The notes under the pieces were generated by a model. That model worked only from the letters and a program-made list of their open reading frames with translations. It ran no database searches and had not been told where the DNA came from. Below are positions 45,632 to 54,252 of a stretch of DNA of 64,000 nt, in pieces. Source of the stretch: Escherichia virus TH58; the sequence record MT446423.1. The stretch is one strand, 5' to 3'. The position numbers were made by a program, and so were the translations under genes. The stretch's first letter is position 1; each line of letters starts with the position of its first letter.

Positions 45632-45864
45632 GTATAGCAATTTACATTAAATCAGAATCATGTGATTCTTATCTGTATTCCTATGATACCGGAACGTCAG
45701 AAGAGAAAATCAAAGAAGATTTAGAAAGCGACTTGGATATGTTCCGACCTATTTCTGATTATATGGTCCAAATATCTGATAGTGAAAGTCCGTCAACAGA
45801 AACATGTGTTGAAATTATTATACGAGATATCTTTAAACGATCATGGGACCGAGATGATGAGTAA
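45628..45864 (+). CDS. hypothetical acidic protein
   Basis: About 78 aa from ATG 45628 with AGGA RBS. Confidence 0.4.
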   Translation: MSIAIYIKSESCDSYLYSYDTGTSEEKIKEDLESDLDMFRPISDYMVQISDSESPSTETCVEIIIRDIFKRSWDRDDE

Positions 45865-46312
45865 GAAAAATAAAGTGAAAGAACTATCAGCCGGTATTAT
45901 TTTCCTTACCGAAGATAAAGAATTATTCATGGGGCGTGTAACTGGTTCTCGTCCTAAAGGTTCTTTAGCTCATCGGTGGGATATTCCTAAAGGTCATGTC
46001 GAGCCCGGCGAATCTCCTATTGAAGCCGCTATTCGTGAATGCGAAGAAGAAACTGGGTTTACACAATATGACCCTGCCTTCCTGAAAGACCTAGGTGAAC
46101 ATCGTTACTCAGACAATAAGAATATTCATCTGTTCCTATATACCATCCCTGTAGAGCACGAGCAATTCAGAAACAGTGTTTGTAATTCCTATCATACGTT
46201 CCCAGATGGTCGACAGATTCCTGAATTTGATGCATTCGCTTTAATTAAACCTTCTCAATGGGAATATGTAATGGGCAAATCATTATATAAGGTGCTCACT
46301 ACCATCCTATAA
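45854..46312 (+). CDS. nudE: Nudix hydrolase
   Basis: Nudix box GHVEPGESPIEAAIRECEEETGF; directly upstream of lysozyme e as T4 nudE. Confidence 0.8.
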   Translation: MMSKKNKVKELSAGIIFLTEDKELFMGRVTGSRPKGSLAHRWDIPKGHVEPGESPIEAAIRECEEETGFTQYDPAFLKDLGEHRYSDNKNIHLFLYTIPVEHEQFRNSVCNSYHTFPDGRQIPEFDAFALIKPSQWEYVMGKSLYKVLTTIL

Positions 46313-46320
46313 GTAATAAA

Positions 46321-46344
46321 TACCTCCTATAAACGTGGGAGGTA
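46321..46344 (+). promoter_or_regulatory. RBS-sequestering hairpin (TACCTCC / GGAGGTA) upstream of e, with TATAAA in loop
   Basis: 7-bp inverted repeat whose 3' arm contains the GGGAGG Shine-Dalgarno of e. Confidence 0.5.
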
Positions 46345-46346
46345 TT

Positions 46347-46835
46347 ATGAATATATTTGAAATGCTTCGTAATGACGAAGGTCTTAGACTGTCTTTATAC
46401 AAAGACACTGAAGGCTTTTGGACGATTGGCATAGGTCATTTAGTAACAAAGAACCCGTCTTTAGCCGTAGCTAAAGCTGAACTTGACAGAATGATCGGAC
46501 GTAAATGCAATGGTACAATTACCCTTGATGAGGCTGAAAAGCTATTTAATGAAGACGTTGATAAAGCCGTTCGCGGAATCTTGGGTAATGCTAAACTTAA
46601 ACCGGTATATGATTCTTTAGATGCAGTTCGTCGATGTGCATTGGTCAATATGGTCTTCCAAATGGGTGTAGCAGGCGTCGCTGGTTTTACTAATTCTCTT
46701 CGTATGCTTCAACAGAAACGTTGGGACGAAGCGGCAGTAAATCTAGCCCAATCTAAATGGTATCGTCAGACACCTAATCGCGCGAAACGCGTAATCTCAA
46801 CATTTAAAACAGGAACTTGGAAAGCGTATATATGA
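46347..46835 (+). CDS. e: endolysin (T4 lysozyme)
   Basis: N-terminus [32 protein letters not shown] matches T4 lysozyme; 162 aa. Confidence 0.9.
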
Positions 46836-50723: not shown

Positions 50724-51182
50724 ATGACTATCAATTCAGACGTTTTTATCCGCCGTAATAAACTCCGTCGAATCTTTGAAACGGAGTTCCGCAAAATAAA
50801 TGCCGGTATAAAAGATGCTGCAAAGTCTCTTGGACTACCAGGCTTTCATATCAAGTATTCTCAACATCTCTTAGATCGTGCCATCCAGAGAGAAATAGAT
50901 GAGAACTACGTTTTTGAATTATTTCATAAAGTAAAAAATCATGTTAAAGAAGTTGCAGAATTTTTATCAATGCCGGCACGTCCGGATGTTGATGAAGATT
51001 TTGACGAAGGTGTCGAATATCGCCCAGGCCGTTTAGAAATAACTGATGGAAATCTTTGGTTAGGACTTACAGTTTGTCGCGAAAATCCGGCATTCAAAAT
51101 GAAGACTCTTCAATGCAGAATGGCTATTATTAACAGTAAACGATTACCAGGAAAAGCTTCTAAAGCAGTGATTAAAATCTAG
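50724..51182 (+). CDS. regB: RegB endoribonuclease
   Basis: 152 aa; N-terminus MTINSDVFIRRNKLRR; size and position between vs genes as T4 RegB. Confidence 0.7.
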   Translation: MTINSDVFIRRNKLRRIFETEFRKINAGIKDAAKSLGLPGFHIKYSQHLLDRAIQREIDENYVFELFHKVKNHVKEVAEFLSMPARPDVDEDFDEGVEYRPGRLEITDGNLWLGLTVCRENPAFKMKTLQCRMAIINSKRLPGKASKAVIKI

Positions 51183-51190
51183 AGGTAAAC

Positions 51191-51733
51191 ATGAGAAAAG
51201 CACTACTCGCTGGTCTATTTGCTCTTTCATTATCAGCACATAGCTCCGAGCATACTTTTAGTAATGTCCAACTCGATAACTTGAATTATGCTTATCAGTT
51301 TGGGGAACAGTTTTCTAAGGACGGAAAATTTAAAACGCATGAAAATATGCATAAGAAAGGACTTGGATACATAATGGCCGCAATACTATGGCAGGAATCA
51401 TCTGCCGGTATTAATCTTAAAGATAAGAAAGGTCACCATGCGTATGGAATGTTCCAAAATTATCTACCAACAATGAGGGCAAGAATTAACCAGCTTGGTT
51501 ATAATATGTCTGATGCCCAAATTAAGAAAATGCTATCTAAGCGGTCTAATTCAGCCAGATGGGCTTATATCGAATTTTCTTATTGGTTAAATATACATAA
51601 CGGGGATATAAGAAAAGCTATATCCTCATATAATGCGGGATGGAAGACAAGTGCTGGAAGTAAATATGCTTCTGAAGTCCTAGAAAAGGCTAATTACCTT
51701 AAATCAAATAAACTACTGGAAATAAAAGAATGA
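51191..51733 (+). CDS. secreted lytic-transglycosylase-like protein (T4 vs.1 position)
   Basis: Signal peptide MRKALLAGLFALSLSAHS; SLT motifs QESS, AYGMFQ, SSYNAGW. Confidence 0.6.
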   Translation: MRKALLAGLFALSLSAHSSEHTFSNVQLDNLNYAYQFGEQFSKDGKFKTHENMHKKGLGYIMAAILWQESSAGINLKDKKGHHAYGMFQNYLPTMRARINQLGYNMSDAQIKKMLSKRSNSARWAYIEFSYWLNIHNGDIRKAISSYNAGWKTSAGSKYASEVLEKANYLKSNKLLEIKE

Positions 51734-52077
51734 CCAAAATGTTGGCTTTAATAGTTGGCTTGGTTTCATTTAACGCTCTTGCTAATACTACATATACTGA
51801 TGTAACGGAGTATACAAACAGAACGGCGTCTGATTATTGTGGTCAAAGTCAAGAGTGTAAAGTAGATTTTTCACAAAAATTGTTATATGCGTATAAAGAC
51901 GGAGAAAAAGATGGGGCGTCTAGTAGGTTCAAGGCGTCTACCTTAATTAAAAGATACTATAAAAAATGGCAAATATTAGAATGCTCGGTGGCGGAACCTA
52001 AAGATAAGGCAGCATGCAATTCTATGGTGGACCGTCTAGTTGACTCTTATACTAGAGGACTTGCAGCAAGTGATTAA
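51730..52077 (+). CDS. small secreted cysteine-containing protein (T4 vs position)
   Basis: Signal peptide MTKMLALIVGLVSFNALA; four Cys; ATGA overlap with the SLT gene. Confidence 0.5.
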   Translation: MTKMLALIVGLVSFNALANTTYTDVTEYTNRTASDYCGQSQECKVDFSQKLLYAYKDGEKDGASSRFKASTLIKRYYKKWQILECSVAEPKDKAACNSMVDRLVDSYTRGLAASD

Positions 52078-52537
52078 AAACTATATCAAGGGCGATATTG
52101 TCGCCCTGTTTTCTAAAGGTAATAATATTGCTCATGGGTGTAATTGTTTTCATACAATGGGCGCCGGCGTGGCAGGACAATTAGCAAAGGCTTATCCAAA
52201 AATTTTAGAAGCCGATAAACTTCAAACCGAATTCGGAGACGAGTCTAAACTCGGGACTTATTCGGTTTATGAAAAATATTTTAAGACACATAAAGCTTAT
52301 TGCTTTAATCTTTATACACAGTTTGAGCCGGGACCTAATTTTGAGTACTCTGCTTTAATGAATTGTATAATAGAATTAAATGAATTCGGAAAGAATAAGA
52401 TAACAAAGCCTGTAATTTATATGCCAAGAATTGGTGCAGGTATCGGTGGTGGAAACTGGGATGTCATCGAAGAGATTTTAGATACGTATTCCACTAAACT
52501 AGAAATTGTGATTGTTGATTGGGAACCATTATTATGA
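52070..52537 (+). CDS. TARG1/OARD1-like macrodomain protein (T4 tk.4 position)
   Basis: KGDIVA...IAHGCNCFHTMGAGVAG and YMPRIGAGIGGGNWDVIEEIL align with TARG1 motifs; start uncertain (GTG 52070 with GAGGA RBS, or TTG 52040). Confidence 0.6.
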   Translation: MIKNYIKGDIVALFSKGNNIAHGCNCFHTMGAGVAGQLAKAYPKILEADKLQTEFGDESKLGTYSVYEKYFKTHKAYCFNLYTQFEPGPNFEYSALMNCIIELNEFGKNKITKPVIYMPRIGAGIGGGNWDVIEEILDTYSTKLEIVIVDWEPLL

Positions 52538-52746
52538 ATATACATTATCCGCATCCATATGACCCAAAGAATAAGGCAGTAATTATTCGACAATGGGAAC
52601 GCATTTGTCGTACCAAATGTCCAATTAATAGTCCACATGATGTAGATAAAGACTACATCGGAACATTCGTTGAATATACCTTTATTGATAAGAAAGGTCG
52701 TAAACAGCATGTAGAAGAATACTGCTTAAAGGTGACATGGTTATGA
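52534..52746 (+). CDS. hypothetical small protein (tk.3 position)
   Basis: About 70 aa from MNIHYPHPYD. Confidence 0.35.
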   Translation: MNIHYPHPYDPKNKAVIIRQWERICRTKCPINSPHDVDKDYIGTFVEYTFIDKKGRKQHVEEYCLKVTWL

Positions 52747-52928
52747 GTTTAAGCAAAGAACAAAAAGACAAACTCTTTTCTCTTATCCACGAAGTTATGG
52801 ATAAAAACAGTGAATTGGAAAAAGTTTGTGATGAATGCGGTCCTTTTAATGCAAACGAGTACGAAGAACTTTCTAAAGAATTCGATAATAAAGAACAAGA
52901 ACTTATTAATTATATAAATTCCTTATGA
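52737..52928 (+). CDS. hypothetical small acidic protein (tk.2 position)
   Basis: 63 aa; resembles the next ORF. Confidence 0.35.
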   Translation: MVMSLSKEQKDKLFSLIHEVMDKNSELEKVCDECGPFNANEYEELSKEFDNKEQELINYINSL

Positions 52929-53122
52929 TTACTCGCGAACAAAAGAACGAAATATTATTTTTAGTTGGTGAAATTATTAGTTTAGAAAAGGATTTGTCTT
53001 TTGAATTATCTTCTGATTATGGAGATGCCGAAACATATTACGAATTAGTAAAATCTATCGATAAAGCTGAAAATGATTTAGAAACATATTTAGAAAATTT
53101 AACTAAGGACTCTTATGGCTAG
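52925..53122 (+). CDS. hypothetical small acidic protein (tk.1 position)
   Basis: 65 aa. Confidence 0.35.
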   Translation: MITREQKNEILFLVGEIISLEKDLSFELSSDYGDAETYYELVKSIDKAENDLETYLENLTKDSYG

Positions 53123-53696
53123 TTTAATTTTTACATATGCCGCTATGAATGCTGGTAAGTCTGCTTCATTACTTACTGCCGCACATAACTATAAAGAACG
53201 TGGCATGGGTGTATTAGTTCTTAAACCGGCTATTGATACTCGCGATTCAAAAGGTGAAATAGTCTCTCGTATTGGTATTCGTCAAGACGCCAATATAATT
53301 ACAAAAGACATGGATATCTTTGAATTCTATAAATGGGCTGCAGCACAAAAGGATATTCATTGTGTATTTGTTGACGAAGCTCAATTCTTAACTACTGAAA
53401 AGGTGTATCAACTTAGTCGTATTGTTGACGTATACAATGTGCCGGTAATGGCATATGGACTACGAACAGATTTTAAAGGTAATCTATTTGAAGGTTCTCA
53501 AGCATTAATGGCTATTGCCGATAAGCTTGTTGAACTTAAAGGTGTCTGTCATTGTGGTAAAAAGGCCACAATGGTAGCTAGAGTCACGGAAGACGGACTT
53601 CCAATTACAGATGGCAGTCAAATTGAAATTGGTGATACTGATAGATATGTGTCATTATGCCGGAAGCATTGGAATGATTTGACAGGGTTGTTATAA
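53115..53696 (+). CDS. tk: thymidine kinase
   Basis: 193 aa; P-loop AAMNAGKS at N-terminus; CHCGKKA zinc motif. Confidence 0.9.
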   Translation: MASLIFTYAAMNAGKSASLLTAAHNYKERGMGVLVLKPAIDTRDSKGEIVSRIGIRQDANIITKDMDIFEFYKWAAAQKDIHCVFVDEAQFLTTEKVYQLSRIVDVYNVPVMAYGLRTDFKGNLFEGSQALMAIADKLVELKGVCHCGKKATMVARVTEDGLPITDGSQIEIGDTDRYVSLCRKHWNDLTGLL

Positions 53697-53723
53697 ATAC
53701 TAATATCTAACCAAGAGGTATAT

Positions 53724-53936
53724 ATGCAGCAATTAAACGAAAGACAACTTCGTAATCTTACTGTAACCCAATTGGATGAAATCCGAAGAGAATTAGGACA
53801 TTCTATTTCTCATTTAAACGAGGATATCCGTCAAACTGGTTCTAAAGCTGATTATACACGCAAGCGCAAGCTGGAAAAATACCTCACAGATGTTAAGGCC
53901 GTCCAAAGGCGAAAAATAAATACTGGCCAAAATTAA
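53724..53936 (+). CDS. hypothetical protein
   Basis: 70-aa ORF between tk and rI. Confidence 0.4.
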
Positions 53937-53948
53937 CAGGAGGCCTAT

Positions 53949-54252
53949 ATGGCCTTAAGAGCGATAGCTGTCATGGCGATGCTGGGGTTTTTTTGCAGCA
54001 ACAACTCCTATCGTTGGTACTGCACATATTGACCCATATTTTGATAACTTTATGGAATCAGGGATTAAAAACGTATATACTTTGTTTGAAATTCAAAATG
54101 TCGAGAATTCTGAAAAATTCTATAAGTATATGGCAAAGCATTACAAAAATAGCCCCTGTGATGATGCATTTGAATGTCATGAACAAGGCATAAAAACTGC
54201 CAGACAATTTGCCGAGTTCATGAAAATAAAATTAGAGCCTACATCTATCTAA
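53949..54252 (+). pseudogene. rI: rI lysis-inhibition regulator (antiholin), interrupted by a +1 frameshift in a T7 tract
   Basis: AGGAGG RBS and ATG 53949 give MALRAIAVMAMLGFF then stop at 54030; the RI-like periplasmic domain (DPYFDNFMESGIK...KIKLEPTSI) continues in the +1 frame to 54252; T7 at 53988-53994. Confidence 0.6.

What the first reader, a model, noticed from the sequence alone, without database searches (positions are those of the whole stretch)
52040..52537. TARG1/OARD1-like macrodomain among early genes, a candidate ADP-ribosylation eraser
The protein aligns with the TARG1 macrodomain at both signature blocks: KGDIVA…IAHGCNCFHTMGAGVAG against the TARG1 KGDLFA…LAHCISEDCRMGAGIA block, and YMPRIGAGIGGGNWDVIEEIL against MPRIGCGLDRLQWENV. 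TARG1-type macrodomains remove ADP-ribose from proteins, and the bacterial antitoxin DarG uses the same fold to reverse DarT ADP-ribosylation of DNA. A phage copy could neutralise DarTG-type defence, or tune the phage's own Alt/Mod ADP-ribosyltransferases, which are not in this window.
Basis: partly seen in the sequence, partly recalled or inferred. Interest (0 to 1): 0.65.

Follow-up and report, generated by a model that had tools for sequence, protein, structure and literature searches.

The report
T-even phage anti-DarTG2 macrodomain (Tk.4/AdfM)

Summary
The ORF is real and encodes a single-domain macrodomain, confirmed by Pfam Macro, a confident AlphaFold model (pLDDT 95.8), and best PDB fold matches to TARG1, Poa1p, DarG, BT1257 and SCO6735. 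The true start is probably GTG 52070 (155 aa), not TTG 52040.

The window comes from a Mosigvirus (RB69/HX01-like T-even phage). The gene is the orthologue of T4 tk.4: 85% identity and the same gene order, regB-vs.1-vs-tk.4-tk.3-tk.2-tk.1-tk. T4 tk.4 was named AdfM in a November 2025 preprint, where deleting it made T4 sensitive to DarTG2.

One correction. The protein lacks the TARG1 catalytic pair: Lys84 is Gln84 here and Asp125 is Gly126. It also lacks DarG's Lys80. Gln84 is invariant in 117 homologues and matches Gln85 of Streptomyces SCO6735, a lysine-less macrodomain that hydrolyses thymidine-linked ADP-ribose on DNA.

The likely mechanism is SCO6735-type removal of DarT2's ADP-ribose from phage DNA thymidines, possibly with direct DarT2 inhibition. 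Tuning of Alt/Mod is unlikely.

In passing, a conserved terminator-like hairpin lies inside codons 7-13.

The parts
52070..52537 (+). tk.4 / adfM coding sequence (GTG start, 155 aa, TGA stop): a single macrodomain
   Evidence: ORF. Start supported by homologues and by the moskry and T4 annotations. Pfam Macro. AlphaFold2 pLDDT 95.8, pTM 0.91. Foldseek top hits are TARG1, Poa1p, DarG, BT1257 and SCO6735.
52040..52069 (+).
   Evidence: No homologue carries this extension. 117 homologues and T4 Tk.4 start at the MI..YIKGD position. The moskry CDS is 468 nt.
52055..52059 (+). Shine-Dalgarno GAGGA, 10 nt before GTG 52070
   Evidence: Read from the sequence. T4, teqdroes and EcWhh-1 have GAGGA at the same distance before their ATG.
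52133..52144 (+). Codons His22-Gly-Cys-Asn25 (HGCN); equivalents of SCO6735 His24 and Asn27. Asn27 positions the catalytic Gln
   Evidence: Alignments. H22 and N25 are conserved in at least 90% of 117 homologues. SCO6735 N27S and the DarG Asn mutant lose activity (PMC9411070). PhiKZ AdfM N23A has reduced activity (PMC13309987).
52319..52321 (+). Codon Gln84 (CAG): occupies the position of TARG1 Lys84, DarG Lys80 and SCO6735 Gln85
   Evidence: MSA and profile alignment. Invariant in 117 homologues. SCO6735 Q85A is completely inactive.
52424..52459 (+). Codons Pro119-Trp130 (PRIGAGIGGGNW): the glycine-rich loop that in solved macrodomains binds the diphosphate. Gly124 = SCO6735 Gly128. Gly126 sits where TARG1 has Asp125
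   Evidence: P119, I121, G122 and G124 are invariant. SCO6735 G128E loses activity.
52089..52114 (+). Terminator-like hairpin inside codons 7-13 (AGGGCGAT-ATT-GTCGCCCT followed by GTTTTCT); role unknown; may be a regulatory element of the vs-tk.4 junction
   Evidence: Scan hit. Predicted free energy about -13 kcal/mol. The same hairpin is kept in T4, teqdroes, EcWhh-1 and AV108 (44% aa identity) and lost in Klebsiella phage F48. It is built from rare codons, P about 2e-4 given the window's codon usage. Codon identity is 6/6 to 7/8 in the hairpin against 0.47-0.61 in the rest of the gene.

Best explanation
The gene is the Mosigvirus orthologue of T4 tk.4 (AdfM), an early-region, stand-alone macrodomain that acts as an orphan antitoxin against the bacterial DarTG2 defence. 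DarT2 ADP-ribosylates thymidines in single-stranded phage DNA and so blocks replication. The phage macrodomain binds the ADP-ribose and hydrolyses the thymine-ribose bond, restoring the DNA. It most likely does this with the lysine-independent chemistry described for Streptomyces SCO6735. In that mechanism an invariant Gln (Gln84 here), held by Asn25, positions the distal ribose, and the reaction is water-mediated. This differs from the Lys/Asp dyad of TARG1 and the Lys80 of DarG. Shown here: the ORF, the fold, orthology and synteny with T4 tk.4, and the identity and conservation of the active-site residues. Taken from the literature: the T4 tk.4 knock-out phenotype on DarTG2, and the SCO6735 enzymology. 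Inferred: that this 85%-identical protein does the same, and that it acts enzymatically.
For: The window is 98.7% identical to Mosigvirus genomes. Gene order regB-vs.1-vs-tk.4-tk.3-tk.2-tk.1-tk-rI.1-rI is identical to T4. The protein is 85% identical to T4 Tk.4 over all 155 residues with no gaps. T4 tk.4 was the single significant hit of a transposon screen on a DarTG2 host, and a clean knock-out sensitised T4 to DarTG2; the authors named it AdfM. T2 and T4 lacking adfN, and T4 lacking both adfA and adfN, stay DarTG2-resistant, so another factor was expected. The macrodomain fold is predicted with pLDDT 95.8 and matches TARG1, Poa1p, DarG, BT1257 and SCO6735 at TM 0.68-0.80. The DarG models of NCBIfam and PADLOC are the only hits in those libraries, at E 1e-7 and 1.4e-8. 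Gln84, Asn25, His22 and Gly124 match SCO6735 Gln85, Asn27, His24 and Gly128 and are invariant or nearly so in 117 homologues. SCO6735 removes thymidine-linked ADP-ribose from DNA, needs Gln85, and protects against DarT in vivo. A different phage macrodomain, PhiKZ gp104, has been shown in vitro to remove DarT2 ADP-ribose from DNA.
Against: No biochemical activity has been reported for T4 Tk.4; the preprint only says enzymatic removal 'seems likely'. Nothing has been tested for this Mosigvirus protein. The catalytic lysine used by DarG and by PhiKZ AdfM is absent. The SCO6735 DNA-positioning lysines Lys34 and Lys89 are not conserved here; Ala32 sits at the Lys34 column and there is no Lys at the Lys89 region. 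By profile score the family is about equally distant from BT1257, TARG1, Poa1p, SCO6735 and DarG, so the SCO6735 analogy rests on a few residues. The T4 evidence is a preprint using one DarTG2 system.
Confidence: 0.75

Rival explanations
1. The protein counters DarTG2 mainly without catalysis. It would bind DarT2 (or ADP-ribosylated DNA) and block the toxin stoichiometrically, as AdfA and AdfB do and as macrodomains can do by 'interaction-inhibition'.
For: Catalytically dead SCO6735 Q85A, DarG K80A and TARG1 K84A all inhibit DarT in vitro, with SCO6735 the strongest. The DarG/TARG1 catalytic lysine is missing here. No enzymatic assay exists for T4 Tk.4.
Against: All residues needed for SCO6735 hydrolysis (Gln, Asn, the Gly loop) are invariant across 117 homologues from phages of many hosts. 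That pattern fits a conserved active site better than a surface evolving against one toxin. The protein lacks the C-terminal DarT-binding domain of DarG: it is a single 155-aa domain. The two modes could also coexist.
Confidence: 0.1
2. Its main substrate is a small ADP-ribose derivative rather than DNA. It would be a Poa1p-like ADP-ribose-1''-phosphate phosphatase or an O-acetyl-ADP-ribose deacetylase. This is the historical annotation ('phosphatase, A1pp motif'), and it would clear by-products or signalling molecules of NAD-consuming host systems.
For: Yeast Poa1p gives the highest query-normalised TM-score (0.80) of the Foldseek matches listed and the third-best distinct protein among the single-sequence hits (1.4e-8). 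The HGCNC..T motif matches Poa1p H23 and S30 as His22 and Thr29, read from the alignment; these are the positions mutated in PDB entries 6LFS and 6LFT. T4 RefSeq, PHROG 335 and many records call it a phosphatase or an OAADPr deacetylase. A Nudix NudE gene lies 6 kb upstream in the same transcription direction; I recall the T4 enzyme cleaving ADP-ribose.
Against: These names are homology transfers, not experiments. At the Gln84 column Poa1p has Ser. The only phenotype known for the T4 orthologue is DarTG2 sensitivity. Macrodomains are often promiscuous, so such an activity could be secondary.
Confidence: 0.08
3. It erases or tunes ADP-ribosylation (or RNAylation) written by the phage's own Alt, ModA and ModB transferases on host proteins.
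For: Aravind and colleagues note that phage morphotypes rich in ADP-ribosyltransferases are also rich in macrodomains. T-even phages encode Alt/ModA/ModB (background knowledge).
Against: As far as I know, Alt/Mod enzymes modify arginine, and removal of arginine-linked ADP-ribose is the job of ARH/DraG-type hydrolases, not ALC1-class macrodomains, which act on Glu/Asp esters and thymine (background knowledge, not tested here). The gene is not linked to alt or mod. None was seen in the annotated 32 kb around it, and by T4 map position they lie outside this window (inference). Homologues are common in phages of many genera; whether those phages carry alt/mod was not checked.
Confidence: 0.03

Closest known systems
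T4 Tk.4 = AdfM (anti-DarT factor macrodomain), bioRxiv 10.1101/2025.11.20.689424
   Same: Orthologue: 85% identity over all 155 residues with no gaps, the same neighbours (vs upstream, tk.3 downstream), and the same active-site residues.
   Different: 24 substitutions, none in an invariant column; for example Gly127 here is Lys in T4. GTG rather than ATG start, with an 8-nt rather than 4-nt overlap with vs. No experiment has been done on this allele.
Streptomyces coelicolor SCO6735 (PDB 5E3B) and Bacteroides BT1257 (2FG1/2AFC): stand-alone Gln-type ALC1-class macrodomains
   Same: Single domain with no adjacent darT. Gln replaces the catalytic Lys. Asn, His and the Gly loop are conserved. SCO6735 cleaves dT-ADP-ribose on DNA and protects from DarT. 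BT1257 is the best sequence match in the PDB.
   Different: Only 22-30% identity. SCO6735 Lys34 and Lys89, which position DNA, are not conserved. The loop after Gln is shorter. The phage family has its own conserved residues, D49 (invariant) and K60 (conserved in at least 90%), of unknown role.
DarG (DarTG2 antitoxin; PDB 5M31, 5M3I, 7OMU)
   Same: Same fold and class (TM 0.73-0.77). Same target, DarT2-modified thymidine, by inference from T4 genetics. Gly at the TARG1 Asp125 column.
   Different: DarG has catalytic Lys80 where this protein has Gln. DarG carries a C-terminal DarT-binding domain (about 340-350 aa in total) and sits next to darT (DUF4433). NCBIfam DarG scores 31.6 bits against a 250-bit cut-off.
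PhiKZ gp104, also named AdfM (PMC13309987)
   Same: A phage-encoded stand-alone macrodomain that neutralises DarTG2; removal of DarT2 ADP-ribose from DNA was shown in vitro.
   Different: A different lineage. It is DarG-like with Lys (motif PTKD) and is the weakest match to the Tk.4 family profile among the references, 37.5 bits against 66 for BT1257. It is imported into the phage nucleus. The shared name hides two independent recruitments.
Human TARG1/OARD1 (PDB 4J5S)
   Different: The catalytic Lys84/Asp125 dyad is replaced by Gln84/Gly126. TARG1 is mainly a protein Glu/Asp-ADP-ribose hydrolase.

Membership tests
Macro domain (Pfam PF01661) | Score above Pfam's gathering cut-off | tested here: met
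   28.1 bits against a cut-off of 22, residues 32-146 of the 165-aa ORF, covering 2-117 of 118 profile positions.
Macro domain (Pfam PF01661) | Macrodomain fold | tested here: met
   AlphaFold2 pLDDT 95.8, pTM 0.91. The 50 listed Foldseek PDB hits are natural macrodomains or engineered proteins retrieved alongside them, with probability 1.00.
ALC1/TARG1-like macrodomain class | Closest relatives are TARG1, DarG, Poa1p and SCO6735 rather than MacroD, PARG or viral Mac1 types | tested here: met
   Profile E-values are 1e-10 to 4e-17 for that group against about 1.5e-4 for coronavirus Mac1. Foldseek gives the same ranking.
TARG1/OARD1 | Catalytic Lys84 | tested here: not met
   Gln84 occupies that column and is invariant in 117 homologues.
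TARG1/OARD1 | Catalytic Asp125 | tested here: not met
   Gly126 occupies that column.
DarG antitoxin (NCBIfam NF048014) | Score above the equivalog cut-off | tested here: not met
   31.6 bits against 250.
DarG antitoxin | Catalytic Lys80 (PTK motif) | tested here: not met
   The motif here is YTQF against PTKK in T. aquaticus and M. tuberculosis DarG.
DarG antitoxin | C-terminal DarT-binding domain and an adjacent darT (DUF4433) gene | tested here: not met
   The protein is 155 aa with a single domain, flanked by vs and tk.3. Real DarTG2 loci have DUF4433 next to a 346-356-aa macro protein.
SCO6735/BT1257-type (Gln) macrodomain | Gln at the catalytic-Lys position, held by a conserved Asn (SCO6735 Gln85 and Asn27) | tested here: met
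   Gln84 and Asn25 are aligned and conserved. Their functional role in SCO6735 is described.
SCO6735/BT1257-type (Gln) macrodomain | DNA-positioning Lys34 and Lys89 | tested here: not met
   Ala32 is at the Lys34 column and there is no Lys in the post-Gln loop.
T4 Tk.4 / AdfM | Orthology: full-length high identity and conserved gene order | tested here: met
   85% identity over 155/155 residues. The vs-tk.4-tk.3-tk.2-tk.1-tk order is the same in T4, moskry and the window.
T4 Tk.4 / AdfM | Protects the phage from DarTG2 | not testable with these tools
   Shown only for T4 by knock-out. It needs plaque assays with a deletion mutant of this phage.
Poa1p-type Appr-1''-p phosphatase | Poa1p H23 and S30 equivalents, and phosphatase activity | tested here: inconclusive
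   His22 and Thr29 align with Poa1p H23 and S30. Activity cannot be tested here. Poa1p has Ser where this family has the invariant Gln.

The most novel reading that the evidence does not exclude
T-even AdfM is a lysine-less, Gln-type macrodomain (SCO6735/BT1257-like). It belongs to a different lineage from the Lys-type PhiKZ 'AdfM' and from DarG itself. On this reading, phages recruited at least two chemically distinct macrodomains against DarT2, and the very widespread Tk.4 family (homologues in about 2800 phage genomes) removes thymidine ADP-ribose by a water-mediated, lysine-independent mechanism. It may also have a wider substrate range or inhibit DarT2 directly. Neither paper read here comments on this difference. 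Separately, the conserved terminator-like hairpin in codons 7-13 could be a regulatory attenuator at the vs/tk.4 junction.
Probability: 0.55. Interest if true: 0.35.

Novelty: already known. Interest (0 to 1): 0.2.

Why it matters
Macrodomains like this one are very common in phages: homologues turn up in about 2800 of 50,697 phage records, and 41% of myoviruses carry a macrodomain according to PMC9503650. They may be a major reason why DarTG2 fails against T-even phages. For this window the practical value is a firm annotation: adfM/tk.4, an anti-DarTG2 factor, rather than 'phosphatase' or 'hypothetical protein'. The one open point of real interest is mechanistic. The T-even protein lacks the lysine that DarG, TARG1 and PhiKZ AdfM use, so it offers a second, phage-borne example of SCO6735-type chemistry that can be tested with two point mutants.

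Tried and rejected
1. TARG1-type catalysis was rejected: both dyad residues are replaced.
2. Membership of DarG proper was rejected: score far below the cut-off, no Lys80, no C-terminal domain, no darT neighbour.
3. I asked whether bacterial relatives of the Tk.4 family sit next to darT, which would point to an antitoxin origin. Three plasmid-borne relatives (Chondrinema, Eleftheria, Vagococcus) are stand-alone with unrelated neighbours, so there is no support from this small sample.
4. Promoter scan of 49.5-54.5 kb: no more sigma-70-like sites than in shuffled sequence, 15 against 18.2 expected. It is uninformative.
5. Rfam on 51.7-52.6 kb: only a chance-level hit, RsaJ at E=0.11.
6. The hairpin palindrome is not a repeated cassette. 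It occurs once in the window, plus one weak 2-mismatch match, so it is not a repeated element within this window.
7. I tried to read LeRoux et al. 2022 for the DarTG2 phenotype of RB69-like phages. The paper is not held, so I make no claim about whether Mosigviruses resist DarTG2.
8. Two literature searches and two in-paper term look-ups failed on term length; three were rerun with valid terms.

Full report
**Observation**

The TTG at 52040 is only the mechanical longest start. It lies inside the 3' end of the upstream gene. The GTG at 52070 is the likely start. It is preceded by GAGGA at 52055-52059 and overlaps the upstream stop codon. T4 Tk.4, the consensus of 117 homologues, and the annotation of the near-identical phage moskry all start at the equivalent MI..YIKGD position. 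The product is therefore 155 aa. Its stop codon overlaps the ATG of the next gene as ATGA.

**What the window is**

The 3 kb around the ORF is 98.7% identical to Escherichia phages PNJ-9 and AV112 and 98.2-98.3% identical to HX01 and moskry; moskry is classified in Mosigvirus, the RB69-like T-even genus. The local gene order is regB, vs.1, vs, the macrodomain gene, tk.3, tk.2, tk.1, tk, rI.1, rI. This is exactly the order in T4, where the macrodomain gene is tk.4, annotated 'phosphatase; contains A1pp phosphatase motif'. The protein is 85% identical to T4 Tk.4 over all 155 residues without gaps. It is the tk.4 orthologue.

**Fold and family**

- Pfam Macro passes its cut-off, 28.1 against 22 bits.
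- PHROG 335 matches at 7e-67.
- The only NCBIfam and PADLOC hits are the DarG models, at 1e-7 and 1.4e-8. Both are far below the 250-bit NCBIfam equivalog cut-off.
- An AlphaFold2 model built on 117 homologues is very confident: pLDDT 95.8, pTM 0.91.
- Its best PDB matches are TARG1, Poa1p, DarG, BT1257 and SCO6735, at TM 0.68-0.80.
- A family profile scores these at 4e-17 to 1e-10, against about 1.5e-4 for coronavirus Mac1.

The protein is therefore a stand-alone macrodomain of the ALC1/TARG1-like class, roughly equidistant from the characterised subgroups of that class.

**Active site**

I recovered the DarG and SCO6735 sequences from PDB alignments and checked my TARG1 sequence against 2LGR. 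A MAFFT alignment and an alignment to the family profile agree on the following.

| Column | This protein | TARG1 | DarG | PhiKZ gp104 | SCO6735 / BT1257 |
|---|---|---|---|---|---|
| Catalytic Lys position | Gln84 (YTQF) | Lys84 | Lys80 | Lys (PTKD) | Gln85 / Gln (IGQH) |
| TARG1 Asp125 position | Gly126 | Asp125 | Gly | not examined | Ala130 / Ala |

His22, Asn25 and Gly124 correspond to SCO6735 His24, Asn27 and Gly128. Gln84, Gly122, Gly124, Pro119 and Ile121 are invariant in 117 homologues, and His22 and Asn25 are conserved in at least 90% of them.

The SCO6735 paper (PMC9411070) reports that this lysine-less enzyme hydrolyses thymidine-linked ADP-ribose on DNA. Q85A is dead and N27S nearly dead, and the enzyme protects Streptomyces from DarT. 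It also inhibits DarT by binding. The SCO6735 DNA-positioning lysines 34 and 89 are not conserved in the phage protein.

**Function**

A November 2025 preprint (10.1101/2025.11.20.689424) screened a T4 transposon library on a DarTG2 host. It found tk.4 as the single significant hit, showed that a clean deletion sensitises T4 to DarTG2, and named the gene adfM. The authors consider enzymatic removal of ADP-ribose from DNA 'likely' but did not assay it.

This fits earlier work showing that T4 lacking both adfA and adfN remains DarTG2-resistant (PMC11825919). A different phage macrodomain, PhiKZ gp104, also named AdfM, removes DarT2 ADP-ribose from DNA in vitro (PMC13309987). However, it is a Lys-type, DarG-like protein and only a distant relative of Tk.4, scoring 37.5 bits against the Tk.4 profile.

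**Mechanism proposed**

The protein is made from the same-strand regB-tk gene block. During infection of a DarTG2 host, DarT2 ADP-ribosylates thymidines in single-stranded phage DNA. The macrodomain binds the ADP-ribose through its Gly-rich loops. Gln84, held by Asn25, positions the distal ribose, and the N-glycosidic bond is hydrolysed by a water-mediated route.

- Shown here: the fold, the orthology and the residues.
- From the literature: the phenotype of the T4 orthologue and the chemistry of SCO6735.
- Inferred: that this allele does the same, and that it acts enzymatically.

Confidence is 0.75.

**Rivals**

- Stoichiometric inhibition of DarT2 without catalysis (0.10). SCO6735 Q85A inhibits DarT, but the invariant active site argues for catalysis.
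- A Poa1p-like small-molecule ADP-ribose phosphatase or deacetylase (0.08). This is the historical annotation. His22 and Thr29 match Poa1p H23 and S30, but there is no experimental support.
- An eraser of the phage's own Alt/Mod arginine ADP-ribosylation (0.03). As far as I know, this class of macrodomain is not known to cleave that linkage.

**Comparison and novelty**

The protein works like a DarG antitoxin but is not a DarG. It lacks Lys80, the DarT-binding domain and a darT neighbour, and it fails the score cut-off. It resembles TARG1 in fold and motif blocks but fails both catalytic-residue tests. It meets the Gln/Asn/Gly features of the SCO6735/BT1257 type, and it is an orthologue of T4 AdfM.

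Near-identical genes are already annotated 'macro domain protein' in GenBank. The finding is therefore already known. What remains of interest is the mechanistic point that the T-even AdfM is Gln-type whereas the PhiKZ AdfM and DarG are Lys-type.

**Side observations**

A GC-rich 8-bp hairpin followed by a T-run lies at 52089-52114, inside codons 7-13.

- It is retained, with its rare codons, in T4, teqdroes, EcWhh-1 and the Krischvirus AV108 (44% protein identity). It is lost in Klebsiella phage F48.
- The codon set has P of about 2e-4 under the window's codon usage.
- Codon identity in the hairpin is 6/6 to 7/8, against 0.47-0.61 elsewhere in the gene.
- One GenBank record annotates it as a terminator and truncates the CDS.

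Its role is unknown.

Both Vs proteins (this window and T4) and Vs.1 of this window begin with signal-peptide-like sequences. A NudE Nudix gene and the lysozyme gene e lie about 6 kb upstream.

Noticed in passing
window 52089-52114 (+), inside tk.4 codons 7-13: A terminator-like hairpin, AGGGCGAT-ATT-GTCGCCCT followed by GTTTTCT, with predicted free energy about -13 kcal/mol. It is built from rare codons (P about 2e-4) and is conserved in T4, teqdroes, EcWhh-1 and AV108 (44% aa identity), but lost in Klebsiella phage F48. The NBG1 GenBank record annotates a terminator here and truncates the CDS. It may be an attenuator or an mRNA-end element at the vs/tk.4 junction.
   Followed up: partly
literature: PhiKZ gp104 (PMC13309987) versus T4 tk.4 (bioRxiv 10.1101/2025.11.20.689424): Two groups independently named two different phage macrodomains 'AdfM'. 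PhiKZ gp104 is Lys-type (PTKD, DarG-like). T4/T-even Tk.4 is Gln-type (YTQF, SCO6735-like). They are only distantly related: 37.5 bits against the Tk.4 family profile.
   Followed up: yes
window 51730-52077 (vs) and 51191-51733 (vs.1); L002 4387-4734 (T4 vs): Vs, the 'valyl-tRNA synthetase modifier', starts with a signal-peptide-like segment: MTKMLALIVGLVSFNALA here and MTKILVLCIGLISFSASASA in T4. Vs.1 does too (MRKALLAGLFALSLSAHS). This is odd for a protein said to bind a cytoplasmic synthetase.
   Followed up: no
window about 45857-46312 (+) and 46335-46835 (+): A NudE-like Nudix hydrolase and lysozyme e lie about 6 kb upstream on the same strand (T4 NudE is, as far as I recall, active on ADP-ribose). 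NudE could dispose of the free ADP-ribose released by the macrodomain. This is speculation.
   Followed up: no
public records matching window 51000-54000: Annotation of this gene block is inconsistent across GenBank records. tk.4 is called phosphatase, macro domain protein, O-acetyl-ADP-ribose deacetylase, leucine aminopeptidase or hypothetical protein. In moskry, vs.1 is labelled 'endoribonuclease' and tk.3 is labelled 'ABC transporter ATP-binding protein'. Several records call vs a 'valyl-tRNA synthetase'.
   Followed up: no
plasmid hits H107-H119 (Bacillus thuringiensis, B. velezensis, Cytobacillus): In Bacillus plasmids the Tk.4-like macrodomain matches lie under genes annotated 'SLOG family protein', which suggests a macro-SLOG fusion or neighbourhood. 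Three other bacterial plasmid relatives are stand-alone with no darT nearby.
   Followed up: partly
window protein residues D49 and K60 (codons 52214-52216 and 52247-52249): The Tk.4 family has its own conserved residues, D49 (invariant) and K60 (conserved in at least 90% of homologues). These are not conserved in SCO6735, DarG or BT1257. They are candidates for family-specific substrate or DNA contacts.
   Followed up: no
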